Shown: positions 15,838-30,065 of the stretch, one piece after another
Position numbering within the stretch: the first letter of the stretch is position 1
Layout of the letters: each line of letters opens with the position of its first letter
Source of the DNA: a virus
Taxonomy: Duplodnaviria; Heunggongvirae; Uroviricota; Caudoviricetes
Strand: one strand, 5' to 3'
DNA: 43,981 bases
Virus record (IMG/VR): IMGVR_UViG_3300045988_012512
Span: 1-43,981 of that record
Translations under genes and position numbers: made by a program
Notes under the pieces: model-generated
Told to the model about the DNA's origin: nothing
Seen by the model: only the letters and a program-made list of their open reading frames with translations
The model's database searches: none

Positions 15838-15860
15838 AAAAGGGGACCGAAGTCCCCTTA
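15838..15860 (-). terminator. intrinsic terminator after the major capsid gene
   Basis: Minus strand reads AAGGGGACTTCGGTCCCCTT followed by a T-run. Confidence 0.6.
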
Positions 15861-15875
15861 GATTATACATACAAA

Positions 15876-16925
15876 TTAAGCACCAACACCAGTTACCAGG
15901 AAGGCAATAGGTACATGCTTACGGTCAACAACACGGTTCCAGTTGGAGGCGTTCGCCAGGTCCTGCCAGGAAGCAGAGCGGGCGATAGTCTCGGTCCCGT
16001 TGCCAGTGATTACCGCGCTGGTGAAGCTGTAACCAAACGGATGCAGCAACCAGGTCTTACGGGTCCACAGGGTTTCAACGCCACCACCGTTACCACGAGA
16101 CGCTTCGCGTTCGTATTCCAGCGGGTTAGACGGGTTGCCCTCGCCGTAACCGATAGCACCGTTACCGAAGATGATGGAGATGAACTTACGGCTCGGGCCG
16201 GTGCCGACTACGGTCATGCTGTCGTCAACAATCACGCGGTAGCCCTGGTAAGTAGCAAACATGGTGTTGTTATCGGCGTCGCGGATGAAGTCGATAAGCT
16301 GCTGTTTACGTGCCTGCGCATATACGAAGCTGTGCATCGCGATAGCGCCCAACACTTCACCGCCGTTGCCCATCAGCGCATCACCCATAGTCTGGGTAGC
16401 GTCGATGAACGCGCCCGAGTCGAAGCCCAGGGTGGCGGACACGTCCACTACCATGTCGTTCTGCTCGTGGTATGCGTCGGTAGCGGCTACGTTGTCGTTG
16501 TACAGACCGAGCGCGGTAGCAATCAGACGGCGTTGTGCCTGACGCTGCCAGAAGTTATCCAGACGGGACGCTACGGATTGCAGCGGGTTCTGGCTGGTCA
16601 GTTCAACAGTCAAATCCGCCTGGCCGAAACCTTCGTTCAGATAAGCCACGCGAACATCCATCTCACCGGTTTGCACGTTACGTGGGGTGGCGACATCCTG
16701 ATACACATCGTTCGAGTAGTTCGGTTCGATAGAGGTATCAATCGCTTTCCAGTACGGCAGAACAGCTTTGTTGGACGGGCCGTTTGCGATAGCGGCGGCG
16801 TACGGAGTCGAGGTAAGGATACCGGACTGGAAGAACGCGGTTTTCTCTACCGGGTCCTCTGTCATGTAGGACAGGATTACCGATTCTTTACCAGTTACGA
16901 TATCGCCGATAGTAGTAATTGCCAT
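15876..16925 (-). CDS. major capsid protein
   Basis: 349-aa ORF downstream of scaffold and followed by a terminator. Confidence 0.75.
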   Translation of the reverse strand: MAITTIGDIVTGKESVILSYMTEDPVEKTAFFQSGILTSTPYAAAIANGPSNKAVLPYWKAIDTSIEPNYSNDVYQDVATPRNVQTGEMDVRVAYLNEGFGQADLTVELTSQNPLQSVASRLDNFWQRQAQRRLIATALGLYNDNVAATDAYHEQNDMVVDVSATLGFDSGAFIDATQTMGDALMGNGGEVLGAIAMHSFVYAQARKQQLIDFIRDADNNTMFATYQGYRVIVDDSMTVVGTGPSRKFISIIFGNGAIGYGEGNPSNPLEYEREASRGNGGGVETLWTRKTWLLHPFGYSFTSAVITGNGTETIARSASWQDLANASNWNRVVDRKHVPIAFLVTGVGA

Positions 16926-17683
16926 TATTTTTTCCTCAGGGCTTTAAGTTGCCGTTCAAATTCGGCAGGGTTCGATTCGTACAGAGCGATACGCTCCGCT
17001 TCACTCATGTCTTTAAACGCTGGTGCGGCCCCGCCGCCTTTGCTACCGGAAGCCCCGCCGCCGGAAGCTGCATTTGCTTTAATCAAATGCGAAAACGCTT
17101 TGTGTTCGCGCAGGTATTTGCGGAACTGTTCCGGGTCAGTCGTGATTACGTTGCCATCTGCACCGACAAACTTAGTAACCACGTCATCACCCTCGAACTC
17201 AGTCTTAACGAACGGAGCAAGAATGTCTACTGCTTCCGGGGTAATAAAATCACCTGCGAAAGAGCCTAACACCGCTTTACGTTCGCTGCCGAGGATGCGC
17301 TCTGCCATTTTGGAGATGCGACCATCTTTCTCGGCTAACACCGGGTCATACTGGCTACGAATCGTCTTTTCGAACTCGTCCATCTTACCGGCGGCTTTTA
17401 GCGCCTCCTGGTGCGCGCGCTGACGTTCCTCTTCGGCCTCTTTTGCTTTACGGGCGGCTTCTTTCTTCTCCGCCAGCAATGCTTCCTGATTGGCCTTAAG
17501 TCCGGCAACTTCTTTCTCAATCATCGCCTGAACTTCTTCAGCGGTGAACATTTTTGGAGCGTCGCCACCGCCAGATTTATCTTCTGCCCCAGCTTCTTCC
17601 TGGAACGGATAGTGTAAAAAACGATTCATAGTCAGTATGTCCCCTGGACGTTGGAATCCGGGCCTCCCGGATTTACATGTCAA
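16925..17683 (-). CDS. scaffolding protein
   Basis: Charged, helical, coiled-coil-rich ORF directly upstream of the capsid gene; real start may be the ATG at 17629. Confidence 0.55.
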   Translation of the reverse strand: MTCKSGRPGFQRPGDILTMNRFLHYPFQEEAGAEDKSGGGDAPKMFTAEEVQAMIEKEVAGLKANQEALLAEKKEAARKAKEAEEERQRAHQEALKAAGKMDEFEKTIRSQYDPVLAEKDGRISKMAERILGSERKAVLGSFAGDFITPEAVDILAPFVKTEFEGDDVVTKFVGADGNVITTDPEQFRKYLREHKAFSHLIKANAASGGGASGSKGGGAAPAFKDMSEAERIALYESNPAEFERQLKALRKK

Positions 17684-17711
17684 GAATAAATTATTCCAAC
17701 ATACAAGGCAA

Positions 17712-17975
17712 CTATTCCAGAATATTCCTCACGTAATCCTGCAACATGAACACTTTCAGTCTCAGTTGCCGTGTGCATTCGGCGTTCTGAACGTCGATGG
17801 CTAAATCCTCGTCAGCGTCGCTACTTGGCGGTGCCAGTTTGCACGGTGGTTGCATCATCGTCGTATCCGGGGATGGAATTGGCGTTTGCAACGGCGCGGG
17901 ACTTGAGCAGGACGCGAGCATCATCGAAAGTGCACACGCTGCGACCAGGCGTTTTAATGTACTTAACGACTTCAC
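17712..17975 (-). CDS. o-spanin (Rz1-like outer-membrane lipoprotein)
   Basis: Signal peptide with lipobox LAS-C, Pro-rich mature part; start embedded in the i-spanin gene. Confidence 0.7.
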   Translation of the reverse strand: MKSLSTLKRLVAACALSMMLASCSSPAPLQTPIPSPDTTMMQPPCKLAPPSSDADEDLAIDVQNAECTRQLRLKVFMLQDYVRNILE

Positions 17976-18207
17976 GTGTAATTACCTCTGATTTCGTCTT
18001 ACCTTCGTTGTCAGCGGCTGCGGCCTTTGATTCATCCTGCTGCTGCCGTTGTGTTTTCTTCGCTAGCTCAGCCTGTGCTTTCTGCTGTTGCTGCGAAACG
18101 AGATTAGCACGGCCTTCACCCCAGCCGCTGCGGTATTGATAGATGCCGTGTGCGTAGGCCAGGACGACGAAACATGCTCCGGCTACGACAGTTGCTTTAA
18201 GATTCAT
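17821..18207 (-). CDS. i-spanin (Rz-like)
   Basis: N-terminal transmembrane helix then Gln/Ala-rich coiled coil; overlapped architecture with the o-spanin. Confidence 0.65.
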   Translation of the reverse strand: MNLKATVVAGACFVVLAYAHGIYQYRSGWGEGRANLVSQQQQKAQAELAKKTQRQQQDESKAAAADNEGKTKSEVITREVVKYIKTPGRSVCTFDDARVLLKSRAVANANSIPGYDDDATTVQTGTAK

Positions 18208-18231
18208 GTTTCCCCTTTCTCGATAAGTAAA

Positions 18232-18258
18232 GCCCCGCCTTAAAGCGGGGCGCTAGTC
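18232..18258 (-). repeat. 27-nt conserved hairpin element (AGCGCCCCGCTTTAAGGCGGGGCTTTA), copy 1
   Basis: Near-identical to the plus-strand element at 31042..31068 (one mismatch, in the loop). Confidence 0.6.
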
Positions 18259-18526
18259 CTTATCATTTAAACATAGAAACGGCGTAATCTCAGTAAACCA
18301 GTTACTTTTTACACAAGCAATAGAGTATGGCCCTTCCGAACGCGTCAGCGTAACTACACTCAGGACTTACGTCCCGCTCCGTTACCTGCCCGCGCCGCGG
18401 TCGCTTGTTCATACTTCACAAGCTCAGGTGGAGCTTATCATATTTTCAGTGAAAAGTCAACTATTCGAATAGTTTATTCCAACGTTTACAATTGAGTGGA
18501 ATAACTGGAATACGTAAATAAATAGT

Positions 18527-18555
18527 TTGCGCACACCAACATAATAGGGTACTAT
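18527..18555 (+). promoter_or_regulatory. sigma70-type promoter (TTGCGC-17-TACTAT) for the DnaN-like gene
   Basis: Spacer and -10 region nearly identical to the promoter at 9029. Confidence 0.55.
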
Positions 18556-18582
18556 TCAGTTAACTTAAACAGGAGATGAGAA

Positions 18583-19104
18583 ATGGTTACTACAGTAATT
18601 ACTTTCCCTGCGTATGTAGGGGCAAAAATCTGCAGGGCTAAAAATGATGTGCGCTACTATTTGAACGCTTTTTACATAGACCCTGAAGGATTGATAGTGT
18701 CTACGGACGGTCATAGATTGTTCTGCGACAATGTGAAGACCAATGTTGAGAAAGGGACTCTCATAGACATCAAAGGGAGAGAGCCTTCTAAATTTAACTA
18801 CGCAGAGGTAAACCACGACAACGGCAGTGTAACTTTCTATGACGATAATCGTGCGCTTATATGCACGCTTCCGGTAGATGTTGTAGAAGGAAACTTTCCT
18901 GACTGGAGACGCGTGGCGAACATCACACCGGGTGTTGTCGATAGTATAGGGTTCACTCTGCGCTATTTGGCAGACGCGTACAAGATTTCTAAGGCATACA
19001 AAAATGAAATTGCTCGTTTCGATTTCCAGGACCAAACCAGAGGATGTAAAATACTATTTTCAAACACGGCCTTTATGGTGTTAATGCCTGCGCGATTTAA
19101 ATAA
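18583..19104 (+). CDS. truncated DNA polymerase III beta sliding-clamp (DnaN) homologue
   Basis: DVRYYLN, STDGHRL, FPDWRRV and C-terminal VLMPARFK match E. coli DnaN motifs DVRYYLNG, TDGHRL, FPDYRRV, VMPMRL; AGGAG RBS, own promoter and terminator. Confidence 0.7.
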   Translation: MVTTVITFPAYVGAKICRAKNDVRYYLNAFYIDPEGLIVSTDGHRLFCDNVKTNVEKGTLIDIKGREPSKFNYAEVNHDNGSVTFYDDNRALICTLPVDVVEGNFPDWRRVANITPGVVDSIGFTLRYLADAYKISKAYKNEIARFDFQDQTRGCKILFSNTAFMVLMPARFK

Positions 19105-19108
19105 AACT

Positions 19109-19131
19109 AAGGCCCCATAATGGGGCCTTTT
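19109..19131. terminator. bidirectional intrinsic terminator (AAGGCCCC-ATAAT-GGGGCCTT)
   Basis: GC stem with T-run; lies between convergent genes. Confidence 0.7.
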
Positions 19132-19132
19132 A

Positions 19133-19591
19133 TCATTCTGTCTTAGAGACCTTCGCCGCTTTGCTTACGGCCTCTGCACCATCGGCATCAGTAACTTTAA
19201 CGAAGTATTCACCAGCCGCATTAACAGTCAGAGACAGAGCCTCTTCCGGGGCGTTCACCACTTCCTTCCCGTCTTTGTACCAGGTCAGTACATACGGCGC
19301 TTTACCCGCCTTAACTTCGACGGTGATGGTGGCGCTACCGTCGACCAGCTCGGTGTCTTTCGGTTGCACAGAGAAATACACATCACCAGCATCTGCCAGA
19401 TACGGAATCTCATAAAGCATACCAGCAGCAGAGAGTGCGATACCGGTCTTGTCCGCATACGGCATCTCGTCTACAGGTGTACCTAGTACACTTTCATCTT
19501 CAACGTAGGTTACGTTCTCACCAGAACCGGATACACGGGCGTACTGGACTACGCGACGCGACGGCACATCAGTTACTTTAAAAAAGCCCAT
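19133..19591 (-). CDS. Ig-like domain protein
   Basis: C-terminal Ig-like signature PYVLTWYKDGKEV...GEYFVKVTDADG. Confidence 0.5.
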   Translation of the reverse strand: MGFFKVTDVPSRRVVQYARVSGSGENVTYVEDESVLGTPVDEMPYADKTGIALSAAGMLYEIPYLADAGDVYFSVQPKDTELVDGSATITVEVKAGKAPYVLTWYKDGKEVVNAPEEALSLTVNAAGEYFVKVTDADGAEAVSKAAKVSKTE

Positions 19592-19594
19592 AAA

Positions 19595-20218
19595 CTAAAC
19601 CTCTTTCATTGAGTTAATCTTACGTAAGACGCCTTCGAAAAGGCGTGGGTCTATGCTATCGCAAAGACCTTTGTATTCATATGCTAATTCAATTTTTCTA
19701 TGAAACCATGCTACGTGTGCCTCTTGAGCGGTTTCGTAAGCGCCTATTTGTTCAGATACGCCATCCACGGATACTTGAGCGATGAATCTTTTCTTTTGTT
19801 TATGGAAATGTACGCCGAGTGGGTGTTCGCCTCGAAGAGCGTCGTGGGCTGTTAGGAAAGTATTGAGGGATTTAGGGATGAAAACACAGTTAGAAGCATC
19901 GTAAACCTTATTTCCCGGGTTAAGTAAATCCTTATCTATCTGCCACCCAGGTACATAAAAATCATCAAACCAGACCTTGAAATTACTGAACACCAACCAA
20001 TCGTCCGACACGCGGCAACCTATATAAGTTCTGTTTCTTTGCTGCCATTTCTTGTCGTAGCACCTCTTTAACATGTTCTTCCATACGGCGTAGGACGCTA
20101 TATGCACCCCTCCGCAACTTATTGGTGAAACATCGTTAATACCCACACCAAAAACAATTCCCATATTAAACCCTATAAGAAAACCCCATGAAGATTGGTC
20201 GATGCCAGAGATAGGCAT
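19595..20218 (-). CDS. free-standing homing-endonuclease-like protein (HNH-type N-terminal region plus AP2-like DNA-binding domain)
   Basis: WKNMLKRC...YIGCRVSDDW...IDKDLLNPGNKVYDASNC then AP2-like GAYETAQEAHVAW; AT-rich with rare codons. Confidence 0.5.
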   Translation of the reverse strand: MPISGIDQSSWGFLIGFNMGIVFGVGINDVSPISCGGVHIASYAVWKNMLKRCYDKKWQQRNRTYIGCRVSDDWLVFSNFKVWFDDFYVPGWQIDKDLLNPGNKVYDASNCVFIPKSLNTFLTAHDALRGEHPLGVHFHKQKKRFIAQVSVDGVSEQIGAYETAQEAHVAWFHRKIELAYEYKGLCDSIDPRLFEGVLRKINSMKEV

Positions 20219-20288
20219 ACCTTCATGGGGTTATATTCTTTCTCTATTTTTAGTAGTTCACCGACCAAAGCTAGCTACTAGATATACT

Positions 20289-21365
20289 TTATACCGACCT
20301 AAGATATTCAGCAACCCTGTTATCTAACGCCGCCATCTCCTTCAAGGTTAAAGGTCTACCAAAAGCGTCGACGGATATTACCCGGAATTCCTCTGGGGAT
20401 ATCCCACTATTCCTGAATATAGCACCGCGGGTAGGTCCGAGTGCTTCATCCACGAACCATGCCGGTTGCTGTTTCAGGAACTCGTAATAGGTGGTGTCTG
20501 CGCTTACCTGCATACCGCCGTCCGCACCCTTAGCCGCGCGTTTTGCACCTTTATCTAGGAAGTCGAACTCCGAACTGATTACCGGTGCAGTGGTACTTCG
20601 ACATCCAAAATGGGCGGGGGGCATCGGACCTTTACCGATTTCCCACGTCATCCCGTCTCTGGCCCTGCAAATCGTACTGGTACGACTGTCCAGCGTTGAC
20701 ACCCATTCGTATTTCTCGATGATGTCGTCGTTCTGGCGGTATGTCTCGTTGCGGGCTTCGTTGGATACGTGAGACAGCGCGGTGCGGATTACCGTAGCCG
20801 CGTTGCGTTCAGAGATGTCCGCCAGCCCACCAGCGCCTACGACATTTTTAACAATCTGCCGTGTGGTTTGGCCCTGAACAAACCCCATCTTAACGCCGGT
20901 TACGAGGCGCGCGGCCTCCGTTTCACCCCAGCCTGCCATCAGCTTAGTGAAATCGACGGGCTTGTCGCTTAATGATAAGGGTTGAAACTCGGCAGCGGAC
21001 CACACCTGTTCGGCGGTAGGCGTAACAAATTCCGCGTCAACGTTGGCGGTCAGTGTTTTTACGTTCCACTCAGCCTCATATGCGGCCAGTTCCTTAAGGT
21101 CTTCTGCCAGTTTTGTTTGCCAGTCACCTGTAAGCCCGGTTAATGCTTCTTCGAGGTCGCGTAACAGTTTATTCAGTCGCGCAGTGCTTCGCCCGTCATC
21201 GCCGAAAAGCAGCACCTGCCGTTTGATTTCGTCCCGCATCTCCTGAATAAACGGTGCGAGGTCTTTCACTTCGCCGGATGCGGCGCGTTGCAGCCATATC
21301 TGGTGGCTGATTAGAGATGTAAGTAAGCTCATAGATAAACCCTGTGGCGCTAAAGTTAATAGCAT
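20289..21365 (-). CDS. minor head morphogenesis protein (Mu F-like)
   Basis: WVSTLDSRTSTICRARDGM...HFGCRST motif; directly downstream of portal. Confidence 0.6.
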   Translation of the reverse strand: MLLTLAPQGLSMSLLTSLISHQIWLQRAASGEVKDLAPFIQEMRDEIKRQVLLFGDDGRSTARLNKLLRDLEEALTGLTGDWQTKLAEDLKELAAYEAEWNVKTLTANVDAEFVTPTAEQVWSAAEFQPLSLSDKPVDFTKLMAGWGETEAARLVTGVKMGFVQGQTTRQIVKNVVGAGGLADISERNAATVIRTALSHVSNEARNETYRQNDDIIEKYEWVSTLDSRTSTICRARDGMTWEIGKGPMPPAHFGCRSTTAPVISSEFDFLDKGAKRAAKGADGGMQVSADTTYYEFLKQQPAWFVDEALGPTRGAIFRNSGISPEEFRVISVDAFGRPLTLKEMAALDNRVAEYLRSV

Positions 21366-21401
21366 ACTATAAGAAAGCCCCTTTCGGGGCTATATGTGAA
21401 C

Positions 21402-22883
21402 TTACTGCTGAGTGACATCTTGTTGCTGCGCCGACTGCGGAATCTCTCCTGCCACCTGAGTAACAGCACCTAACGGCAGAGGTGCGTCCTCAATAGCGTT
21501 CTGAATATCCTCGTCGGTCCAGTCAGTCACCCCTGCTTTACGCAACGCGGCGTAGTATGCGGTCGCTGGCAGCAGACCGGCATTAATGTCCGCCATCCAC
21601 TGAGCGCGGTCCTGAGCGGTCATCGGTTGCAGGAAGAACTCCATATTCAGCTTGAACTCAATCTCAGTACCGTCACTAAGCCCGAGCATCGTGGCTACCC
21701 AGCGCAACGCATCGGTATACGCCATGCTTACGTTACGTGCGATTGTCGCCATAACGGACGTGTCAGCACCACGTTGCAGGCGGGCCGATTCAGCGGTGAT
21801 TTGCTGCGTCGGGGTAATAAGCTGTGCGCCAATCTGGATGGCCTGATTCTCTTTATCCAGCATATTCTGTTTAGCCAGGTTATTCTCTCCTGCCTGAACA
21901 AGAAACGCGTTGCCGCCGTAACCGATGTTATGGCCCGAACGTGAACCCATTCGCACGCCGTGGGGGTTGACCTCTTTCCACTGCTCCATGCTCATGTTCT
22001 CGCCCGGGGCGATGAACAAAGTTGGCTGGCCTACTACGAAGCTGGATTCCTCATTGTCCGCGCTGTTGCGGAAATGCCCGATATTAAGTTCAGCCAACGG
22101 CAGCAAAGGTGCGTCATCAACCGTCGCGTCGTTATTACTCGCACCAATAAACGTGAATGGGATTTTTCCGCGCAACTGTTCGCCCAGTTCCGGGAAGATT
22201 TCTTTTACATCACCCTGCGCACCACCTTCGGCATCGAAACGGTATATGCGCTGGCGATAGCGGCTGTCAATCAGGTCAAGGACACGGTATTGCTCACCGA
22301 ACTTGGTTTCAAACTCTGCGCCAGGTTCTGAGTATTCCCACACCTCACGCAGCACGACCATTGTCACACGGTTAACCGAACCGATGCGGGTCAGTCGCCA
22401 GTTGATGATGTTCTCTGCGGTATAGAAAGCGATGACCGGGTTTAATAATCCAGCGTTCTGCTCTGCTGCCGTTGCGGCGGCGGTCTCCGGGGCGTCCACC
22501 AGCAACCCGCCACGACCCACCGAGTCAATCTCCATTAGCGTATCCTGGGCGTGCTGCCACAGCCCTACACCTGAGCCATCCGCGTTGCGTAGCAGGTACT
22601 CTAGTTCAGGAGGGATAATCTGCTCCGGGTCTTTGCGCATGACACTGCCAACCATCCCCGCCAGAGTGCGCTTGGTGAAGTTGTAGCAGATAGCGCCGTT
22701 CTCATATTCTTCCTGGCGCTGTGCTGCGTAGGCCGGATCCGGTTCGTTCTTCCCTACGTTGCGCAGATAGCGAATAAGGTCACCTTCCAGAGCGTGGCGC
22801 ACCTTCTGCCATTTATCGAAGTGATGCAGCCATTCCCGGTGTTTTGTCTTAACACCCTGATTCTGACCGTTCATAGTTAACAT
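21402..22883 (-). CDS. portal protein
   Basis: 493-aa ORF immediately downstream of terminase large subunit. Confidence 0.6.
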   Translation of the reverse strand: MLTMNGQNQGVKTKHREWLHHFDKWQKVRHALEGDLIRYLRNVGKNEPDPAYAAQRQEEYENGAICYNFTKRTLAGMVGSVMRKDPEQIIPPELEYLLRNADGSGVGLWQHAQDTLMEIDSVGRGGLLVDAPETAAATAAEQNAGLLNPVIAFYTAENIINWRLTRIGSVNRVTMVVLREVWEYSEPGAEFETKFGEQYRVLDLIDSRYRQRIYRFDAEGGAQGDVKEIFPELGEQLRGKIPFTFIGASNNDATVDDAPLLPLAELNIGHFRNSADNEESSFVVGQPTLFIAPGENMSMEQWKEVNPHGVRMGSRSGHNIGYGGNAFLVQAGENNLAKQNMLDKENQAIQIGAQLITPTQQITAESARLQRGADTSVMATIARNVSMAYTDALRWVATMLGLSDGTEIEFKLNMEFFLQPMTAQDRAQWMADINAGLLPATAYYAALRKAGVTDWTDEDIQNAIEDAPLPLGAVTQVAGEIPQSAQQQDVTQQ

Positions 22884-22895
22884 TGAATAATCCTC

Positions 22896-24146
22896 TTAAA
22901 GTGCGAAAGTCACCGGGATGTTGATTACTGGTTTAACCACCGGCATCTCGTAAACTACAGGATAGCCGAGAGCATCCGCCATATGGTCAATGATGCCGTC
23001 TTTAGCTGGCTCTCCGTTATCGTCGTATGCCTGCTGCTCCAGCGTCTTTGCTATCTCAGGGCATAAGTGGTCGTTAACCCACAGCTTACCTTTTTCCAGC
23101 GCGGTATTCACGGCTAAAACACGGTCTTTAACCGGTGGGTTGGCGGATTTAGCGCGGACATCAAAACCGGCCTGCTGTAGTAAGGCAATATCGGAGATTG
23201 ATGCCGAGTTGGTTTTGCGGTTCTTGCCGCTGGCGTCGGGGTAAACGACGATGCGGTGGCCTTGTGACTTCCACTTCTCAGTAATTACGCGCACGGTGTC
23301 TGGTGTATCGAACAAGCCTTTCAGTTCTGCTACCGCGTGCCAGCCGTCTTTACGTTGCACATACACGGCGCTGGCGTTTTTCGTAACGTTGAAGTCCTGC
23401 CCGATGTACAGTGTGTCGCCTGGCTGAATCGTCTCTTTGCTGCGGTGCTTGCGACGGTCATACGCGTAATACACGCTGCCGGATGTCAGGTTGACGAACT
23501 CACCGTTCAGATACGCGTTAATCAACTGTGCTGGGTAAGTCTCTGTCAGCGAGCTGATGTAATCCGGTGGCAGGAAACGCGCGTTCTCGTGTGTTGAAGC
23601 CTGCACCATCGAGTAACTCGGTGTCGGATTCTCTTTGAACTTGGCGTAGACGAACTTGAACCCTTCCGGCGTCGTGGTTACGGAGATGTGGTTAATTACA
23701 CCCGGGATAACCAGACGCATACGGGCTACAATTTTGTTCCACGCCAGTTCCGCCTTCTCGCGGCTCAATACGTCCAGTTCATCCACGACCGCAGCAGCGA
23801 TTTTGAAACCTACGATAGAGCCAGGGTTATCCATCGAACGGCAGATAACCGTCCCGAGAACCGTCTTACCGCGAGTAACCACGACTTCTTTGTCACCGGA
23901 TTTAACCAGCACATCAAGGCCGAGCAGGTTAGCCGCTTCCTCGAATGTCGGGTAGAAGATGTCGCGGATAGCTGGATATGTGGGGCCGAAGTAACCCAGG
24001 CGCGTACCTGGATGCTTGAGCATAAACGTAAGCAGGTCAAGGCAGCCAACAAATGTCTTTCCGCTGCCGAAGCCTCCGACGTAGGCCTTGTACTTGTTAT
24101 CGCAATTCAGGAACAGCGCCTGAGGGGCGGATAGCTGAATACTCAT
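22896..24146 (-). CDS. terminase large subunit
   Basis: Walker A GGFGSGKTFVG near the N-terminus; ATGA overlap with the upstream small subunit. Confidence 0.8.
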   Translation of the reverse strand: MSIQLSAPQALFLNCDNKYKAYVGGFGSGKTFVGCLDLLTFMLKHPGTRLGYFGPTYPAIRDIFYPTFEEAANLLGLDVLVKSGDKEVVVTRGKTVLGTVICRSMDNPGSIVGFKIAAAVVDELDVLSREKAELAWNKIVARMRLVIPGVINHISVTTTPEGFKFVYAKFKENPTPSYSMVQASTHENARFLPPDYISSLTETYPAQLINAYLNGEFVNLTSGSVYYAYDRRKHRSKETIQPGDTLYIGQDFNVTKNASAVYVQRKDGWHAVAELKGLFDTPDTVRVITEKWKSQGHRIVVYPDASGKNRKTNSASISDIALLQQAGFDVRAKSANPPVKDRVLAVNTALEKGKLWVNDHLCPEIAKTLEQQAYDDNGEPAKDGIIDHMADALGYPVVYEMPVVKPVINIPVTFAL

Positions 24147-24688
24147 TCCTCTACCTCGCCCATGTTTGTGGTAACTATTTTGCCTACGGGCTCCGCAACA
24201 CTGAAAATAATCTCAGTCGGTGCCGTTTCTTCGGTGGATTCGACCGGTTTCTCTTTGCTAAGGCCTAGCTTCGCGGCAGCAAATGTAGCCGAGATGCCCG
24301 CGGCCCCGGTCTCGGTGAAGTATGCCTCTTCCAGTGCCTGTGCAGTTTCATAGGCTTCTGCAAATGCGGGAATCTCGCGCAGCCATAGCTTAATAATCGG
24401 GATAGTGACGCCGATGTGTAAGGCGAAGCGGGCCAGTGACGGTGGTTTATCCTGAATCAGCGGGCGTTCGTCACCCTTGGACGTAGGTACAAGTTCCCAC
24501 GACGTGCGGTCGAAGAACTCGATTAACGCGTCGCAATAGTCCGGGTCCCACAACGCGGCGGAATTACGGGACGATTGATAAAGGCTCTGTTTCCCACGCG
24601 GTCGCCTACGGCGGCGGTTTGCACTAACAGCTTCTTCATGTGCAGCTTGCACCACCTCTGGCGATGGCTGCTTGAGTTTCAGCTTCAT
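24143..24688 (-). CDS. terminase small subunit
   Basis: Arg-rich basic N-terminus; AAGGGG RBS before the ATG at 24688 (ORF track extends to 24727). Confidence 0.5.
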   Translation of the reverse strand: MKLKLKQPSPEVVQAAHEEAVSANRRRRRPRGKQSLYQSSRNSAALWDPDYCDALIEFFDRTSWELVPTSKGDERPLIQDKPPSLARFALHIGVTIPIIKLWLREIPAFAEAYETAQALEEAYFTETGAAGISATFAAAKLGLSKEKPVESTEETAPTEIIFSVAEPVGKIVTTNMGEVEE

Positions 24689-24780
24689 AGAATCCCCTTG
24701 CATATGCGTCTGACCATCAGAGCGCACCAGACGCGCCCTACGCGTCTAAAGGGATTATATAAGGGGATTGGGCGGGATGT

Positions 24781-24806
24781 ACAGAAAAGCCCTCCGTAGA
24801 GGGCTT
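24781..24806 (-). terminator. intrinsic terminator between early operon and terminase genes
   Basis: Minus strand reads AAGCCCTCTACGGAGGGCTT followed by a T-run. Confidence 0.55.
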
Positions 24807-24898
24807 GTATCAGTTATATAGGCCGTGTCGTGGTGCTCTCTTACCGTCGCCGTCGTAATGGTCATTAGCTACGGCGATAGCCCAGGCGTTAGGGATGA

Positions 24899-25141
24899 TT
24901 AGTAACCGCATTCGTTCTCCTCTTTAGCAATACGTTGTTCAGTTTTAGTGATGCCACGGCGCGTGAATAACACCGGGCTTGTCTTAACGTGCGTCATCAG
25001 ACGGTTGTTATAGATTACGTGGCGCTCACATTTCACGTCTTTGCTGTACTTCGCGATCGTCATTTCGTTGAGGCCAGTTTGTCGGCATGTCTCCGCCATC
25101 GTGCCGAATTCTTTAATCAGGTTAGGAATGCTGGTAATCAT
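24899..25141 (-). CDS. small putative DNA-binding protein
   Basis: HTH-like ETCRQTGLNEMTIAKYSKD; ATGA overlap with the upstream ORF. Confidence 0.35.
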   Translation of the reverse strand: MITSIPNLIKEFGTMAETCRQTGLNEMTIAKYSKDVKCERHVIYNNRLMTHVKTSPVLFTRRGITKTEQRIAKEENECGY

Positions 25142-25332
25142 CCTAAGAAATTCCTCGTTGTCCACATCGCATTCGGATATTTGTTATCGCGGTCCTGCAC
25201 TACGGCAATCACGTTACCACGTTGCACCAGGCAGAAGTGCCGTTGTTGCTCACCGTTGTAGCGACGCCAGATTGCTTCTTCGATTGCCGCATTAATGTCA
25301 CTGAACACTGTCTCTACCCCACATAAACCCAA
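25138..25332 (-). CDS. hypothetical early protein
   Basis: ORF-track ORF without an ATG start (TTG or GTG only). Confidence 0.25.
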   Translation of the reverse strand: MGLCGVETVFSDINAAIEEAIWRRYNGEQQRHFCLVQRGNVIAVVQDRDNKYPNAMWTTRNFLG

Positions 25333-25501
25333 TCAATACGCCGATAAAATAACCTGCTGCGACAAGGCCAATAACCACCTCAAGACTCATACTCAACCCT
25401 CCATACTTAATAGCACGTATCCAGGCAGTTCCGCCAGCTTGATTCCTGCCATAACAGGCTCAAAATGCTCAGGTAATATCTTTAGTTCGTGAAACATACT
25501 C

Positions 25502-25684
25502 TCACCCAACTATCTCATCACCAAGCCACGCCGTTTCTCGTATATCATCGACCACACAGGCGGCGTGCTCACGGCTAATTGCAAAAATGTAGAAACTAAA
25601 CTTCTTCCCGTCGGCGTCGATATGGTTAACCGAGTAGGGTTTCCACAGGACACCATCAATTACTACTGGTTTAGGCGACTTCAT
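25502..25684 (-). CDS. hypothetical early protein
   Basis: 60-aa ORF in the coupled early operon. Confidence 0.3.
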   Translation of the reverse strand: MKSPKPVVIDGVLWKPYSVNHIDADGKKFSFYIFAISREHAACVVDDIRETAWLGDEIVG

Positions 25685-25919
25685 ACGCTTTACCGCATTT
25701 TAAGCATGTGACTCGATGCACCCCATCAACTAAATGCAGGCGGTAATCATGCTCGCAGGCGTTCATCTTTTCCCCTTCTCCTCTCAACAACATGAGAAGA
25801 ACCTTAAATGCGGCTAACTGGTACTCACCGTTAATCGACAGTTGCCCGCCTAGCGTCTGTTTCTCCGACTCAAGCACCAGAATACGGCGCTCGAGCGATG
25901 CGATTGTGATTTTAGGCAT
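25671..25919 (-). CDS. coiled-coil plus zinc-ribbon small protein
   Basis: C-terminal CEHDYRLH...CLKCGKAY; same Cys motif occurs twice in the 28964..29512 protein. Confidence 0.4.
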   Translation of the reverse strand: MPKITIASLERRILVLESEKQTLGGQLSINGEYQLAAFKVLLMLLRGEGEKMNACEHDYRLHLVDGVHRVTCLKCGKAYEVA

Positions 25920-26143
25920 TATTCTGCTCCCTCATAAAAATAACCATCGAAACTGTCGTTAGTAGGGGAAGGTTTGTTCAGGTTAAAGCGGTTAATCAGT
26001 TCGCGGCGTTGCTCCATCAGACGGTCTACCTTATTTGCGTAGTACTGAATCATAGTATCCAGGCAAGCAATCTCTGATTCGCCGTTGTCGGCAGGGCGGA
26101 GCGCAGCTTCTACACACGCTTTCTCATATTCACGGTCAGTCAT
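25919..26143 (-). CDS. hypothetical early protein
   Basis: 74-aa ORF; start overlaps upstream stop. Confidence 0.35.
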   Translation of the reverse strand: MTDREYEKACVEAALRPADNGESEIACLDTMIQYYANKVDRLMEQRRELINRFNLNKPSPTNDSFDGYFYEGAE

Positions 26144-26297
26144 TTTTACGCTCTCCCCACATGCGATTGAGATACTTGTTCTTGTCCGGCCCAGGGAAAC
26201 TGTTACGTTTCATCAGTTCCTCACGTGTCGGGAACGGTGTGTGACTGACTTTACGGCCTACTCGTAATGGTTGGCTTACTTGACCTTGTTCGCTCAT
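26136..26297 (-). CDS. hypothetical small protein (53 aa)
   Basis: ATG at 26297; TGATG coupling to the upstream gene. Confidence 0.3.
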   Translation of the reverse strand: MSEQGQVSQPLRVGRKVSHTPFPTREELMKRNSFPGPDKNKYLNRMWGERKND

Positions 26298-26461
26298 CAC
26301 TTAACCTCAACATAATCGGTAGTAAGGAATACAATTTCGCCGTTAACAATCAAAAGCGGTGTATCTTCGATGACGCTTTTAACCTCTACAAAATACCCAC
26401 CGTAACTGTCGTCTATAAACAGAACGTCTCCAGGTACTAAATCTGCGGCTAACTTGCTCAT
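26297..26461 (-). CDS. hypothetical small protein (54 aa)
   Basis: ATG at 26461 in an ATGA overlap with the upstream ORF. Confidence 0.3.
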   Translation of the reverse strand: MSKLAADLVPGDVLFIDDSYGGYFVEVKSVIEDTPLLIVNGEIVFLTTDYVEVK

Positions 26462-26607
26462 TTCTTCTCTCCTGCATAAGCTGCTTTCAGTGTCTGCATC
26501 GCGGCGAACCAGAACGCGTCCGCGGGAATGCTGTTGCTCAGGTTACTAACGGCGATTCGTGCCATCAGTTGTGCGTCTTTGAATGCTTCGATGTCTGTGA
26601 TTTTCAT
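26458..26607 (-). CDS. hypothetical small protein (49 aa)
   Basis: First gene after the promoter at 26642..26670; ATG at 26607. Confidence 0.3.
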   Translation of the reverse strand: MKITDIEAFKDAQLMARIAVSNLSNSIPADAFWFAAMQTLKAAYAGEKK

Positions 26608-26641
26608 TTCTCTCTACTCCGTTCTCGTTGTCGATGGAGTA

Positions 26642-26670
26642 AATATAATAGGGTCGAGGGTAATAGTCAA
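26642..26670 (-). promoter_or_regulatory. sigma70-type promoter (TTGACT-17-TATATT)
   Basis: Read on the minus strand, immediately after a strong terminator. Confidence 0.5.
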
Positions 26671-26692
26671 CTAGTCATTGCAGAAAATAGAT

Positions 26693-26723
26693 AAAAAAAA
26701 TCCCGGCTAGGTCAGGGCCGGGA
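26693..26723 (-). terminator. strong intrinsic terminator (7-bp GC stem followed by eight T)
   Basis: Minus strand reads TCCCGGCCCTGACCTAGCCGGGA then TTTTTTTT. Confidence 0.75.
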
Positions 26724-26760
26724 GAAACAGAGAGCAGAGGGATGATACAGGAGGTTGGTG
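26693..26760 (-). ncRNA. candidate small RNA (about 65 nt, CU-rich) between tandem terminators
   Basis: Promoter-like TTGACA-17-CATACT at 26794..26766 on the minus strand, then a pyrimidine-rich segment, then the terminator at 26723..26693. Confidence 0.25.
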
Positions 26761-26906
26761 AAACCAGTATGAAGCTGCCGTTGTTGGGTGTCAACAGAGA
26801 TTTCCGGCTCGCGTTACCGCACATCGGCCTGACCTTGTCACAGGTCCGCGCGGGGGATGATACCCGGAATGCCCGCAATGTTGTTTATCTTCTGTTGACG
26901 AAATAA

Positions 26907-26929
26907 AACCCGGATTCGCGGTCCGGGTT
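26907..26929 (-). terminator. intrinsic terminator downstream of the endolysin gene
   Basis: 8-bp stem AACCCGGA / TCCGGGTT followed on the minus strand by TTTATTTC. Confidence 0.5.
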
Positions 26930-26968
26930 TCGGGGTGGGGCAAGCACAAACAGCGCAGGGTGATTATA

Positions 26969-27457
26969 TCAGCCTTTCACCGCACGTCCAATAGCAACCG
27001 CCTCTTGCCACGGTTTACCGTCGAACAGTGCCAGACGTCCAGCGGTACGGCGGCGCAAGCCAAGTAATGGTTTGCCGTTCTGGTTGATGAACAGCGCCAG
27101 CTTGGCCCGCAGTGTCGCAACGTCGCCTGAGCGCAGTGCCTTACCGGTACCGGTAGTAGCTGCGATAACGCCAGCACCCGCGTTAAATACCAGGTCGCAC
27201 ACTGCATCGAACTGCGCCTGTGTCAGCGAATGGTGTGCGGCGGCGTCAACCGCAGCTACGGCCTTAGCCATGTCGCGATTCAGTAACAGGAGGCCTTGGC
27301 CTGGTGTGATGGTCTGCCCGGCCTTAACATGTGGGCCATAGCTTCCGTACCCAATAGTAAGGTACTTCTCATTTGGCGTAGCACGATACGCAGTCCCGCG
27401 GAACCCCTCGAACGCGGCGGTGAAATGCAGTCCATTATCTGAAATATTTCGAGACAC
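26969..27457 (-). CDS. endolysin (GH24 lysozyme / T4 lysozyme-like)
   Basis: LHFTAAFEGFRGTAYRATPNEKYLTIGYG catalytic motif; GGAGG RBS before GTG at 27457 (ORF track extends to 27508). Confidence 0.75.
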   Translation of the reverse strand: MSRNISDNGLHFTAAFEGFRGTAYRATPNEKYLTIGYGSYGPHVKAGQTITPGQGLLLLNRDMAKAVAAVDAAAHHSLTQAQFDAVCDLVFNAGAGVIAATTGTGKALRSGDVATLRAKLALFINQNGKPLLGLRRRTAGRLALFDGKPWQEAVAIGRAVKG

Positions 27458-27707
27458 GCTTATGTCCTCCGTATGACAGCCACGCCTGACGAATCTGGCG
27501 CAGCGCAACTAATGTGATTAATGTCTCAGGCAGCGTTGGTGACACGCTGCCCTGTAACAGGTGGATACATCCGGCGGCGCAGACGATAGCAGTCAGGATA
27601 TAGAGCACCCGGCCGAACAGCCCGTCATCAACGCTGGGATGGTACACATTAAACAGCGATGTACCCCCGATTGCCAGCATACCGCCGAACCAGAATAACT
27701 CATTCAT
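27435..27707 (-). CDS. holin-like membrane protein
   Basis: About 90 aa from ATG 27707 (MNELFWFGGMLAIGG...) with 2-3 hydrophobic helices, immediately upstream of the endolysin. Confidence 0.55.
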   Translation of the reverse strand: MNELFWFGGMLAIGGTSLFNVYHPSVDDGLFGRVLYILTAIVCAAGCIHLLQGSVSPTLPETLITLVALRQIRQAWLSYGGHKRVSKYFR

Positions 27708-28008
27708 CCGGGCCTCCTCGACGTGAGATGTATTCCCCGGCGACGATACCGGAGAGGCGGGAATAGATAGGCATCCAGAGAATAGCGATGATGAAACCCA
27801 GACCAGCGATTTCACGCTCCCCGGTAATGCCGAACCATTGGGCAGCGAGAGGCGCACCGAATACGGCGCAAGCGAAGCCGGTTACAATAAAGAATAAGCC
27901 GTCGATGGGTCCAGAAATAACGGACTTATGTTGTCGTAGTCCGATGACCCCTCCGGCGAGTGCGGCAGCGAGAAGCCAGCCTGTCACTGTTTCAGTAAAT
28001 TTATCCAA
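27700..28008 (-). CDS. holin / antiholin-like membrane protein (three predicted transmembrane helices)
   Basis: 102 aa with three hydrophobic segments; adjacent to the second holin-like gene. Confidence 0.55.
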   Translation of the reverse strand: MDKFTETVTGWLLAAALAGGVIGLRQHKSVISGPIDGLFFIVTGFACAVFGAPLAAQWFGITGEREIAGLGFIIAILWMPIYSRLSGIVAGEYISRRGGPDE

Positions 28009-28083
28009 GATGAATCCTCCAGGTGCGTATTAAGTATGCAGTAACTGGAGGATAGCACGGTTAGGAATTATCTTAATAACGGT

Positions 28084-28377
28084 TTATTTATGACGCCAGA
28101 TGTATTGTCGTCTCTGCGGTTTCGTCGGAATATCATCGTATCCGAGCGATTTCCAGTAATTAAATAACCGATTAGCGATTGCAGCGCGTTCCTGCGTTTT
28201 AAACTCACCGAGATTCACGGCCTTCCAGTTCTGGAATCCACAGGCGCGGACAGCTTTGCGTCGGGCCTGAATCTCAGGGTACAGCGCGTTACCCCGACGC
28301 TTGCATATCTGTGTTTTAGCTCTCGGTGACAGCGGCGAGAGGCCGCTTCGTTTCAGGATGTCAGTTGCAAGGCTCAT
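28084..28377 (-). CDS. hypothetical basic protein
   Basis: Likely start at ATG 28377 (ATGA overlap); ORF track extends to 28422. Confidence 0.35.
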   Translation of the reverse strand: MSLATDILKRSGLSPLSPRAKTQICKRRGNALYPEIQARRKAVRACGFQNWKAVNLGEFKTQERAAIANRLFNYWKSLGYDDIPTKPQRRQYIWRHK

Positions 28378-28565
28378 ATACCGAGAATCCCGCTGGCCAT
28401 TTCTTCGGTAGCTTTCGAACACGGCTCATACATTACCTGTTCAGCGAAGTTACGCAGCTTATGCTCAAGCGCCGCGTAATCATCGTATGTCACATAGTCG
28501 CCGTAGTCCCATTTAGCCATCTCAGGCTCTTCCCATCTGGTAGATAATTCGTATCTCTGTACCAT
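28374..28565 (-). CDS. small protein, paralogue B (MVQRYEL...)
   Basis: Begins with the same ATGGT-CAGAGATA nucleotide string as the adjacent paralogue. Confidence 0.35.
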   Translation of the reverse strand: MVQRYELSTRWEEPEMAKWDYGDYVTYDDYAALEHKLRNFAEQVMYEPCSKATEEMASGILGI

Positions 28566-29642: not shown

Positions 29643-29672
29643 CTCTGTCTCTCCTCTCGCTTGTGTAAATGA

Positions 29673-30062: not shown

Positions 30063-30065
30063 AAA

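What the first reader, a model, noticed from the sequence alone, without database searches (positions are those of the whole stretch)
17712..18207. Lysis functions are split: overlapped spanin pair sits about 9 kb from the holin-endolysin cassette
The i-spanin (transmembrane helix plus coiled coil) and embedded o-spanin (lipobox LAS-C, Pro-rich) lie directly upstream of the scaffold and capsid genes in the late operon. The two holin-like genes and the endolysin lie at 26969..28008, at the end of the early operon and before tandem terminators. Different operons imply different timing for membrane and cell-wall disruption versus outer-membrane fusion.
Basis: partly seen in the sequence, partly recalled or inferred. 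Interest (0 to 1): 0.45.

Follow-up and report, generated by a model that had tools for sequence, protein, structure and literature searches.

The report
Spanin genes apart from lysis cassette
This phage keeps the two genes that break the bacterial outer membrane next to its capsid genes, about 9 kb from the genes that break the inner membrane and cell wall; the layout is real but is already described for this phage group.

Summary
On the minus strand, 18207..17821 encodes an i-spanin and 17975..17712 an o-spanin. The o-spanin is overlapped in the +1 frame by 155 nt; it is not embedded. The pair lies directly upstream of the scaffold and major capsid genes. A holin, a second holin-like gene and a soluble lysozyme-type endolysin lie at 28008..26969, followed by two intrinsic terminators.

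The window is a Kagunavirus (Guernseyvirinae). The spanins belong to the published 'Jersey' spanin families, with the same 155-bp overlap and the same Cys45 and Cys67. Their separation from holin and endolysin is stated in the Schulenberg and fBC-Eco01 papers. I saw the same layout in Jerseyvirus and Dhillonvirus genomes. It is therefore already known.

Separate transcription units are supported by conserved terminators and two different promoter types. Different timing of the lysis steps does not follow from that: spanins stay inactive until the wall is degraded, and the only RNA-seq on a close relative puts lysozyme and capsid in one class.

The more novel item lies just outside the coordinates. 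A promoter is followed by a roughly 200-nt leader (18431..18226) that is 95-100% conserved and supported by covariation. It has no Rfam match and sits directly in front of the spanins.

The parts
17821..18207 (-). i-spanin gene (128 aa): N-terminal transmembrane helix and a polyQ-rich, predicted helical periplasmic domain with Cys92
   Evidence: phrog_2536 at 5e-55. Hydropathy maximum at residues 5-23. Low-confidence AF2 helices at 3-63, 69-84 and 94-107. Annotated as i-spanin in Ivi and Shashou.
17712..17975 (-). o-spanin gene (87 aa, GTG start): lipoprotein signal LAS|C23, Pro-rich N-terminal part, Cys45 and Cys67. It overlaps the i-spanin by 155 nt in the +1 frame.
   Evidence: phrog_5672 at 2.5e-30 and phrog_1267 at 4e-18. 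Anatomy. Same overlap and cysteines in colinear loci. Selection in both frames.
18232..18251 (-). GC-rich hairpin GCCCCGC-UUUAA-GGCGGGGC followed by UUUACUUAU, 24 nt upstream of the i-spanin ATG. It looks like a terminator.
   Evidence: -17.4 kcal/mol for the 45-nt segment containing it. Compensatory changes in Shashou, L027 and Jersey type. The U tract is not kept in Jersey or Cornell types. A 27/28 copy lies at 31041..31068 on the plus strand.
18324..18431 (-). 5' domain of a conserved structured leader: a 5' hairpin, then a long closing helix around an inner helix and a GNRA-capped hairpin
   Evidence: The 246-nt query covering promoter, leader and hairpin is 95-100% identical in 180 phage records. 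It is more conserved than the flanking coding DNA. Covariation. The covariance model finds Jersey-type versions at E about 1e-6. No Rfam hit.
18432..18474 (-). Promoter-like region of the spanin-scaffold-capsid unit: palindrome AACTATTCGAATAGTT (18474..18459), -35 TTGACT (18460..18455), 17-nt spacer with TGn, -10 TAAGCT (18437..18432)
   Evidence: Sequence. The -35, TGn and -10 are conserved in Kaguna and Jersey types while the 'n' varies.
16925..17626 (-). Head scaffolding protein gene, next gene after the spanins
   Evidence: phrog_206 at 1.8e-54. The 702-bp annotation in relatives gives the start.
15876..16925 (-). Major capsid protein gene
   Evidence: Annotation in relatives. ORF.
15840..15859 (-). 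Intrinsic terminator after the capsid gene; likely end or attenuation point of the spanin-scaffold-capsid unit
   Evidence: -13.8 kcal/mol, UUUUCUUUU. Terminator annotated at the same place in Shashou.
18583..19104 (+). Opposite-strand sliding-clamp-like gene (a 'moron', that is, an inserted extra gene) that interrupts the minus-strand gene string just upstream of the spanin unit
   Evidence: phrog_3007 and phrog_947. Relatives hold other genes, or none, in this slot.
19109..19129 (.). Bidirectional terminator that closes the terminase-portal-head unit (minus strand) and the clamp-like gene (plus strand)
   Evidence: -16.3 kcal/mol.
27700..28008 (-). Holin, class I-like with three hydrophobic segments
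   Evidence: phrog_2359 at 7e-29. Sequence. Annotated as holin in relatives.
27435..27707 (-). Second holin-like gene, class II-like with two hydrophobic segments; possibly an antiholin
   Evidence: phrog_2508 at 6e-34. Called a 'holin/antiholin pair' in Schulenberg.
26969..27457 (-). Endolysin of the phage lysozyme family with no signal-anchor segment, so dependent on the holin
   Evidence: PF00959 at 9e-26. phrog_33703 and phrog_7. No hydrophobic window.
26701..26931 (-). Two intrinsic terminators after the endolysin (26931..26905 and 26723..26701), with a promoter-like TTGACA-17-CATACT (26794..26766) between them
   Evidence: The second terminator is conserved in EC3-1 and Jerseyvirus AG11.
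26642..26670 (-). Promoter-like TTGACT-17-TATATT that starts the next unit (small genes, terminase, portal, head genes)
   Evidence: Conserved in EC3-1 and AG11.
29670..30786 (-). Two copies (29670..29687 and 30769..30786) of the repeated motif TGAATAGTAcCCTATTAT. Its reverse complement carries TTGCAC-17-TACTAT, pointing leftward at the small-gene, holin and endolysin unit.
   Evidence: 7 copies, 0.02 expected.. Consensus reported as a promoter class in PMC9825357.

Best explanation
The window is a Kagunavirus-type siphophage genome with a complete set of lysis genes for a Gram-negative host, held at two loci.

Locus 1 (28008..26969) encodes a class I holin, a second holin-like protein (probably an antiholin or co-holin) and a soluble T4/P22-type lysozyme. 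It lies at the end of the leftward small-gene unit and is closed by two terminators.

[quoted passage not shown] This pair is the first coding element of a separate unit that continues into the scaffold and major capsid genes. That unit has its own extended -10 promoter and a conserved structured leader.

Inferred mechanism, by homology with lambda Rz/Rz1. Spanin complexes build up across the periplasm while capsids are made. They are held inactive by the peptidoglycan mesh. They fuse the inner and outer membranes only after the holin triggers and the endolysin has removed the wall. Lysis timing is therefore set at locus 1. Locus 2 only needs to have been expressed beforehand.

What is shown: gene identities, architecture, conservation, and the terminator and promoter signals.

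What is inferred: the temporal classes, the fusion mechanism, and any regulatory role of the leader.
For: Identity of the phage: the region is about 90% identical at DNA level to Kagunavirus genomes.

Identity of the genes:
- PHROG and Pfam matches for all five lysis genes.
- Transmembrane helix, lipobox LAS|C23, Ser at +2, Pro-rich stretch, 155-nt +1 overlap, Cys45 and Cys67.
- These match the Jersey family description: 155-bp overlap, constant Cys45 and Cys67, two polyQ stretches, K1G/K1H/K1ind members (PMC6139136).
- The same anatomy appears in the colinear homologous loci, and both frames are under purifying selection.

Layout in relatives:
- EC3-1, Ivi and fBC-Eco01 (Kagunavirus), AG11 (Jerseyvirus) and SECphi18 (Dhillonvirus) all have it.
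- The partial loci seen for Shashou (Kagunavirus) and Shemara (Cornellvirus) likewise put the spanins before the scaffold gene.

Unit boundaries:
- Terminators at 26931..26905, 26723..26701, 19109..19129 and 15859..15840.
- Promoter-like sites of two different types.
- The terminator-promoter junction after the endolysin is conserved across genera.
Against: - No experiment on this phage or its spanins is available here.
- The temporal classes are unmeasured. The K1B4 RNA-seq puts lysozyme and capsid in the same broad class.
- The i-spanin coiled coil is supported only by a low-confidence single-sequence model (pLDDT 56).
- Promoters and terminators are consensus matches. The scan tool found no more of them than in shuffled sequence overall, so each site rests on its position and conservation.
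- Read-through could join the units into longer transcripts.
Confidence: 0.85

Rival explanations
1. The physical split has no regulatory meaning. All co-oriented minus-strand genes, from the small early genes through holin, endolysin, terminase, spanins and capsid, are effectively read as overlapping long transcripts. The terminators leak or are overridden, so spanins and holin-endolysin appear together.
For: - Apart from inserted opposite-strand genes, every gene from 30746 down to about 1046 is on the minus strand.
- The K1B4 RNA-seq classes lysozyme, head and capsid genes together.
- The counts of predicted promoters and terminators do not exceed shuffles.
Against: - Strong terminators with good U runs sit exactly at the unit boundaries and are conserved across genera.
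- An opposite-strand gene and a bidirectional terminator sit between the head unit and the spanins.
- The spanin unit has its own conserved extended -10 promoter.
Confidence: 0.2
2. Holin and endolysin are early genes and spanins are late genes, so inner-membrane and wall disruption are programmed at a different time from outer-membrane fusion.
For: - The two loci have different promoter types.
- The holin-endolysin block follows small genes next to the divergent control region, which carries HTH regulators.
Against: - By established lambda and T4 biology (my knowledge), spanin action depends on prior wall degradation, so the time of mRNA synthesis does not set when the outer membrane is disrupted.
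- An early-firing holin would abort the infection.
- RNA-seq on a relative does not place lysozyme in the early class.
Confidence: 0.12
3. The ORF pair at 17.7-18.2 kb is not a working spanin but a relic or a head-assembly accessory that merely looks like one.
For: - The position inside the head gene block is unusual compared with lambda.
- No Pfam family matches either protein.
Against: - All defining sequence features are met.
- The PHROG match is strong.
- Both overlapping frames are under purifying selection.
- No other spanin candidate is annotated in fully annotated relatives.
Confidence: 0.03

Closest known systems
'Jersey' i-spanin and o-spanin families (Kongari et al. 2018, PMC6139136; members include Jersey, SETP3, K1G, K1H, K1ind1-3)
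   Same: Overlapped architecture with a 155-bp overlap. The o-spanin has Cys45 and Cys67. The i-spanin has two polyQ stretches. The proteins are homologous: 62-98% identity to the i-spanins of these phages.
   Different: Nothing material. This is another member.
Kagunavirus genomes Schulenberg, Shashou, fBC-Eco01, Ivi and EC3-1
   Same: Same layout: holin, holin and endolysin in one place; overlapping spanins directly before the scaffold and capsid genes, 7-9 kb away. This is stated in print for Schulenberg and fBC-Eco01.
   Different: The window carries an HNH endonuclease at 20218..19595, and its clamp-like inserted gene sits in the slot before the spanins. In Shashou the clamp gene is elsewhere.
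Lambda lysis cassette S-R-Rz/Rz1
   Same: Same four functions: holin, endolysin, and a two-component spanin with a transmembrane i-spanin and a lipoprotein o-spanin in the +1 frame.
   Different: In lambda the four genes are contiguous on one late transcript and Rz1 is fully embedded in Rz. Here the spanins are overlapped rather than embedded, lie 8.8 kb from the endolysin, and are in another predicted unit.
T4 dispersed lysis genes (e, t, pseT.3/pseT.2)
   Same: The spanin genes are not near the holin and endolysin genes (Kongari et al.).
   Different: In T4 the holin and endolysin are also apart from each other and the spanin genes are 'separated'. Here holin and endolysin stay together and the spanin genes overlap.
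Lambda pR'-6S RNA-tR' with Q, and HK022 put RNA (compared with the leader only)
   Same: A sigma-70-type promoter is followed by about 200 nt of non-coding, structured sequence and a terminator-like hairpin. In lambda the lysis genes come first after that element; here the spanins do.
   Different: No Q-like or N-like protein was found. There is no sequence or Rfam similarity. The U tract of the hairpin is not conserved in sister genera. This is a resemblance only; membership was not tested.

Membership tests
Two-component spanin (Rz/Rz1 type; 'Jersey' families) | i-spanin has a single N-terminal transmembrane domain, with the rest of the protein in the periplasm | tested here: met
   The only hydrophobic 19-residue window is at residues 5-23 (KD 1.69). 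AF2 gives a helix from residue 3.
Two-component spanin (Rz/Rz1 type; 'Jersey' families) | i-spanin periplasmic domain is largely alpha-helical or coiled coil | tested here: inconclusive
   The single-sequence AF2 model predicts helices at 3-63, 69-84 and 94-107, but with pLDDT of only 56. PolyQ stretches are present, as described for the family.
Two-component spanin (Rz/Rz1 type; 'Jersey' families) | o-spanin has a signal peptidase II lipobox with Cys, and the +2 residue is not Asp, which directs it to the outer membrane | tested here: met
   The precursor reads MKSLSTLKR-LVAACALSMMLAS|C23-S24. Cys22/23 is conserved in homologues.
Two-component spanin (Rz/Rz1 type; 'Jersey' families) | o-spanin gene lies in the +1 frame, embedded in, overlapping or just after the i-spanin gene | tested here: met
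   155-nt overlap in the +1 frame, extending 109 nt beyond the i-spanin stop. The Jersey family is reported with a 155-bp overlap.
Two-component spanin (Rz/Rz1 type; 'Jersey' families) | Periplasmic cysteines available for intermolecular disulfides | tested here: met
   The o-spanin has Cys45 and Cys67, reported as constant in the family. The i-spanin has Cys92.
Two-component spanin (Rz/Rz1 type; 'Jersey' families) | Sequence homology to family members | tested here: met
   phrog_2536 at 5e-55, phrog_5672 at 2.5e-30 and phrog_1267 at 4e-18. tblastn matches 626 phage records.
Two-component spanin (Rz/Rz1 type; 'Jersey' families) | Required for outer-membrane disruption; complements lambda Rz/Rz1 mutants | not testable with these tools
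   Needs genetics.
Canonical holin-endolysin pair | Small membrane protein or proteins with 2-3 transmembrane segments, next to a muralytic enzyme that has no secretion signal | tested here: met
   phrog_2359 and phrog_2508 holins, each with hydrophobic segments. PF00959 lysozyme with no hydrophobic window.
Lambda-type contiguous lysis cassette | Holin, endolysin and spanin genes adjacent on one transcript | tested here: not met
   8,762 nt, at least three terminators and an opposite-strand gene separate the endolysin from the spanins.
Q- or N-type antitermination module (considered for the leader) | A phage-encoded antiterminator protein | tested here: not met
   Ten small ORFs scanned against PHROGs and Pfam gave no such match. 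None is annotated in the full genome of relative Ivi. Not every ORF of the window was scanned.
Any described RNA family (considered for the leader) | Match to an Rfam covariance model | tested here: not met
   No match at gathering score in the whole window. Only chance-level matches (E above 1) in 18150..18650. No tRNA or tmRNA.

The most novel reading that the evidence does not exclude
The spanin pair is not simply displaced. It is the first cistron of a capsid operon that is gated by an undescribed structured leader RNA.

- The leader runs from about 18425 to 18226. It has a 108-nt multi-helix 5' domain with a GNRA hairpin, then a conserved 3' part and a GC hairpin 24 nt before the start codon.
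- It lies downstream of an extended -10 promoter that has a palindrome centred near -41.5.

If this leader is a cis-acting regulator (an attenuator, an antiterminator, or a riboswitch-like or protein-binding element), then outer-membrane lysis competence and capsid production are switched on together by an RNA element of a new family shared by Kagunavirus and Jerseyvirus phages.
Probability: 0.25. Interest if true: 0.55.

Novelty: already known. Interest (0 to 1): 0.17.

Why it matters
The finding as written has little consequence. It confirms that automated or by-eye annotation can recover a spanin pair that sits outside the lysis cassette, which many deposited records of this group still miss or truncate (for example, the 147-bp 'o-spanin' calls in EC3-1 and K1B4). 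It also shows that spanin genes need not be linked to the holin and endolysin genes.

For anyone engineering these therapeutic K1 or Salmonella phages, all lysis functions are present, but at two loci.

The conserved leader in front of the spanin-scaffold-capsid unit could matter more. It would be a handle on how phages of this subfamily, which have no RNA polymerase of their own and no recognisable antiterminator, switch on their most highly expressed structural genes.

Tried and rejected
- Rfam at gathering score over the whole window, and at E up to 10 over 18150..18650, gave nothing meaningful. ARAGORN found no tRNA or tmRNA.
- The 36-aa ORF inside the leader (18412..18302) is annotated as hypothetical in some relatives. 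I rejected it as a gene: 1-nt indels in L010, L011, L021 and L031 shift its frame, and Jersey-type leaders lack its start.
- I looked for a second copy of the structured leader in the window with the covariance model and filters off. There is none; the next hit scores 14 bits inside a coding region. Only the 28-nt hairpin is duplicated, at 31041..31068.
- The search for Q-like or N-like antiterminators among ten small ORFs found only two HTH regulators and a weak NinH-like match.
- The time-course RNA-seq paper on K1B4 has no per-gene table in its supplements. Its classes are defined over 5-120 min with a 30-min latent period, so it cannot separate the units.
- VAAC14 as the lipobox was rejected.
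- The single-sequence AF2 model of the i-spanin was too uncertain for fold searches, so none was run.
- The built-in terminator scan missed the two post-endolysin terminators. They were confirmed by reading the sequence and by folding.

Full report
**What the window is**

A megablast of 16000..29500 finds about 500 phage records. The best are Escherichia phages of the genus Kagunavirus (fEg-Eco19, EC3-1, Ivi and others) at about 90% identity over 70-86% of the query. The window of 43,981 bases is essentially one such genome. All genes discussed here are on the minus strand.

**The observation**

The ORF list gives 18207..17821 (128 aa, ATG) and 17975..17712 (87 aa, GTG).

The first ORF matches PHROG 2536 'Rz-like spanin' end to end at E 5e-55. 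The second matches PHROG 5672 (2.5e-30) and PHROG 1267 (4e-18). Pfam has no model for either.

The i-spanin has one hydrophobic stretch, at residues 5-23. It also has two polyQ runs and one periplasmic cysteine, Cys92.

The o-spanin precursor begins MKSLSTLKRLVAACALSMMLAS|C23-S24.
- This is a positively charged n-region, a 13-residue h-region, the lipobox LASC and a non-Asp +2 residue.
- The mature 65 residues hold 9 prolines, all within the first 28 residues.
- There are cysteines at 45 and 67.
- An upstream lipobox-like VAAC14 would leave only a four-residue h-region. Cys14 is also missing in Jersey-type homologues.

The two genes share 155 nt. The o-spanin is in the +1 frame and runs 109 nt past the i-spanin stop. 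This is the 'overlapped' class, not the 'embedded' class.

Across 44 colinear homologous loci both frames are under purifying selection.
- In the i-only part, 99 of 158 possible synonymous changes are seen, against 98 of 538 non-synonymous.
- In the o-only part, the figures are 41 of 68 against 20 of 259.
- In the overlap, changes that are non-synonymous in both frames are the most depleted class, at 33 of 234.

A single-sequence AlphaFold model is of low confidence (pLDDT 56). It predicts helices at 3-63, 69-84 and 94-107. The 'coiled coil' is therefore plausible but not shown.

The scaffold gene (17626..16925, PHROG 206) and the major capsid gene (16925..15876) follow directly.

**The other lysis locus**

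- 28008..27700 is a holin (PHROG 2359).
- 27707..27435 is a second holin-like protein (PHROG 2508).
- 27457..26969 is a lysozyme-family endolysin (PF00959, 9e-26) with no hydrophobic N-terminus, so it depends on the holin.

The endolysin stop lies 8,762 nt from the i-spanin start.

Two hairpins with U runs follow the endolysin. One is at 26931..26905 (-14.4 kcal/mol, UUUUAUUU). The other is at 26723..26701 (-13 kcal/mol, eight U). They are about 210 nt apart. A promoter-like TTGACA-17-CATACT lies between them, and TTGACT-17-TATATT (26670..26642) lies after them. The second terminator and the following promoter are conserved in EC3-1 and in Jerseyvirus AG11.

**Is it new?**

No.
- Kongari et al. 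2018 define a 'Jersey' i-spanin family and a 'Jersey' o-spanin family of 27 phages that include K1G, K1H and K1ind1-3. They are classed as overlapped, with a 155-bp overlap, constant Cys45 and Cys67 in the o-spanin, and two polyQ stretches in the i-spanin (PMC6139136). The window matches every point.
- The fBC-Eco01 paper places the spanin genes gp11 and gp12 apart from the holins and endolysin gp68-70 (PMC9825357).
- GenBank records of Ivi, EC3-1 and Shashou annotate the pair as spanins in the same position.
- I found the same split in Jerseyvirus AG11, where the loci are 7.6 kb apart on the circle, and in Dhillonvirus SECphi18. In Cornellvirus Shemara I saw only the locus around the spanins, which again lie before the scaffold gene; there the pair is of the 'separated' class.
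- T4 is the textbook case of spanin genes that are not near the holin and endolysin.

**Transcription units**

Downstream of the post-endolysin promoter come small genes, terminase, portal, head-morphogenesis, an HNH endonuclease and an Ig-like decoration gene. That string ends at a strong bidirectional terminator, 19109..19129 (-16.3 kcal/mol).

Next comes a plus-strand sliding-clamp-like gene (18583..19104). This slot holds a methyltransferase in S119, a phosphatase in Shemara, and nothing in Jersey or Shashou.

The spanins therefore head their own unit. Its promoter-like site is TTGACT (18460..18455), a 17-nt spacer ending in TGn, and TAAGCT (18437..18432). In 52 related loci the -35, the TG and the -10 are kept while the 'n' varies. 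Jersey-type loci have TGnTACGCT. A 16-nt palindrome, AACTATTCGAATAGTT, is centred about 41.5 nt upstream of the likely start. The unit runs through scaffold and capsid to a terminator at 15859..15840.

The holin-endolysin unit lies downstream of two copies of a different repeated element, TGAATAGTAcCCTATTAT.
- It occurs seven times in the window, against 0.02 expected by chance.
- Its reverse complement reads TTGCAC-17-TACTAT.
- The other copies point at the inserted opposite-strand genes and at a Cro/CI-type HTH gene.
- The fBC-Eco01 authors report the same consensus as a promoter class.

Two loci in two units with two promoter types is thus supported at sequence level.

**Timing**

The step from 'different operons' to 'different timing of membrane and wall disruption versus outer-membrane fusion' is not supported.

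From established lambda work (my knowledge, not tested here), spanin complexes accumulate during late expression. They are restrained by the intact peptidoglycan and act within seconds of its removal. The holin sets the time of all steps.

The only time-course RNA-seq on a close relative (vB_Eco_K1B4, 44,581 bp) samples from 5 to 120 min with a 30-min latent period. It puts lysozyme, Mu-F-like head protein and capsid in one 'middle' class (PMC12645636). Its supplements hold no per-gene expression values.

**What else is there**

The roughly 235 nt between the spanin promoter and the i-spanin start are the most conserved DNA in the neighbourhood.
- A 246-nt query covering this stretch and the promoter is 95-100% identical in 180 phage records.
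- In 47 metagenomic viral contigs it stays at 96-100% in nearly all loci that carry it (two outliers at 92.7% and 82.5%), while the adjacent spanin and scaffold DNA is 78-97% identical. This includes Jerseyvirus-like loci whose coding DNA is only about 80% identical.

Its 5' 108 nt fold into a 5' hairpin, then a long closing helix that encloses an inner helix and a GNRA-capped hairpin (GGGAC-GUAA-GUCC).
- On 14 distinct Kaguna-type variants, 96.6% of cells pair and four pairs carry compensatory changes. The covariation score is 0.103 against 0.060 in shuffles (0 of 500 reach it).
- A covariance model built from these variants finds the divergent Jersey-type leaders at 29-35 bits, E about 1e-6.
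- On that alignment, 10 of 32 pairs carry compensatory changes and 92.5% of cells pair, against 31-44% when the partners are slid. That alignment was fitted to the model, which favours the structure.

The 36-aa ORF in this stretch is frame-shifted in several genomes, so it is not a gene.

The leader ends in a GC hairpin (18251..18232) 24 nt before the ATG. The hairpin shows compensatory changes in Shashou, L027 and the Jersey type, and a 27/28 copy sits in the early control region at 31041..31068. Its U tract (UUUACUUAU) is not kept in Jersey or Cornell types, so whether it terminates is open.

There is no Rfam match, no tRNA, and no second copy of the domain in the window. No Q-like or N-like protein was found. 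The searchable literature does not mention the element.

The element is absent from Dhillonvirus, where the i-spanin appears to abut the head-morphogenesis gene (estimated from the tblastn match in an unannotated stretch). It is partly deleted in one Jersey isolate.

Its function is unknown. A cis-regulatory leader for the spanin-scaffold-capsid unit is the reading I favour, with modest confidence. Part of its extreme conservation may instead reflect exchange of this segment between phages, because the Kaguna-type leader occurs next to Jersey-type spanins in L009, L041, L042 and L055.

**Verdict**

The finding is a correct reading of an arrangement that is already published for this phage subfamily. 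The mechanistic inference about timing does not follow. Interest in the finding itself is low. The conserved leader just upstream of it is the item worth a follow-up.

Noticed in passing
window 18226..18474 (minus strand): An extended -10 promoter with a palindrome near -41.5 is followed by a roughly 200-nt non-coding leader. The 246-nt stretch covering promoter and leader is 95-100% identical in 180 phage records, and its 108-nt 5' domain is supported by covariation. There is no Rfam match. The element sits directly before the i-spanin. It is more conserved than the flanking genes, and a divergent Jersey-type version has the same fold.
   Followed up: partly
window 31041..31068 (+) and 18232..18251 (-): The GC hairpin before the spanins, with its flanks (TAGCGCCCCGCTTTAAGGCGGGGCTTTA), has a 27/28-identical copy in the divergent early control region. 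Its role there is unexplained.
   Followed up: no
window 9043, 18541, 29670, 30769, 34444, 34488, 37111 (18-nt sites): The motif TGAATAGTAcCCTATTAT occurs seven times, against 0.02 expected. It contains the inverted repeat AATAG-N4-CTATT overlapping a TACTAT -10 on the opposite strand. The copies point at the early leftward unit, at the inserted opposite-strand genes and (two copies) at a Cro/CI-type HTH gene. It looks like a combined promoter and operator. A published paper attributes it to a phage RNA polymerase, which neither the fully annotated relatives nor the ORFs I scanned appear to encode.
   Followed up: partly
window 26695..26794 (minus strand): Between the two post-endolysin terminators lies a promoter-like TTGACA-17-CATACT, followed by about 65 nt of CU-rich sequence (ACCUCCUGU...CCCUCUGCUCUC) that ends at the second terminator. 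The CU-rich stretch and the terminator are conserved in EC3-1 and in Jerseyvirus AG11, and the promoter-like site in AG11, where a promoter is annotated at this place. This may be a small RNA with an anti-Shine-Dalgarno-like seed.
   Followed up: no
window 19595..20218 (minus strand): A free-standing HNH endonuclease gene (phrog_953, 3e-79) lies between the head-morphogenesis gene and the Ig-like decoration gene. These two genes abut in EC3-1, Ivi and Shashou.
   Followed up: no
L008 (fEg-Eco19) 2844..3350; L057 (AG11) 38901..39446: Homing endonucleases sit inside lysis loci of relatives. In fEg-Eco19 an HNH gene splits the i-spanin from the o-spanin, turning the overlapped pair into a separated one. 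In AG11 an HNH gene sits between holin 2 and the endolysin.
   Followed up: no
window 18583..19104 (+) and the same slot in L007, L009, L004, L006: The slot between the decoration gene's terminator and the spanin promoter holds different opposite-strand genes in different phages: clamp-like, adenine methyltransferase, metallophosphatase, or nothing. It is a hot spot for inserted genes.
   Followed up: partly
window 17627..17711 (minus strand): The 85-nt gap between the o-spanin stop and the scaffold start contains a TTGACA and an 8-bp hairpin, AATCCGGG-AGG-CCCGGATT, with no U run. It could be an internal promoter or a processing or stability element.
   Followed up: no
L001 (EC3-1) 3213..3359; K1B4 gene 031: Several deposited annotations call only the last 147 bp of the o-spanin gene. 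That leaves out the signal peptide and lipobox, so the o-spanin is mis-annotated in those records.
   Followed up: no
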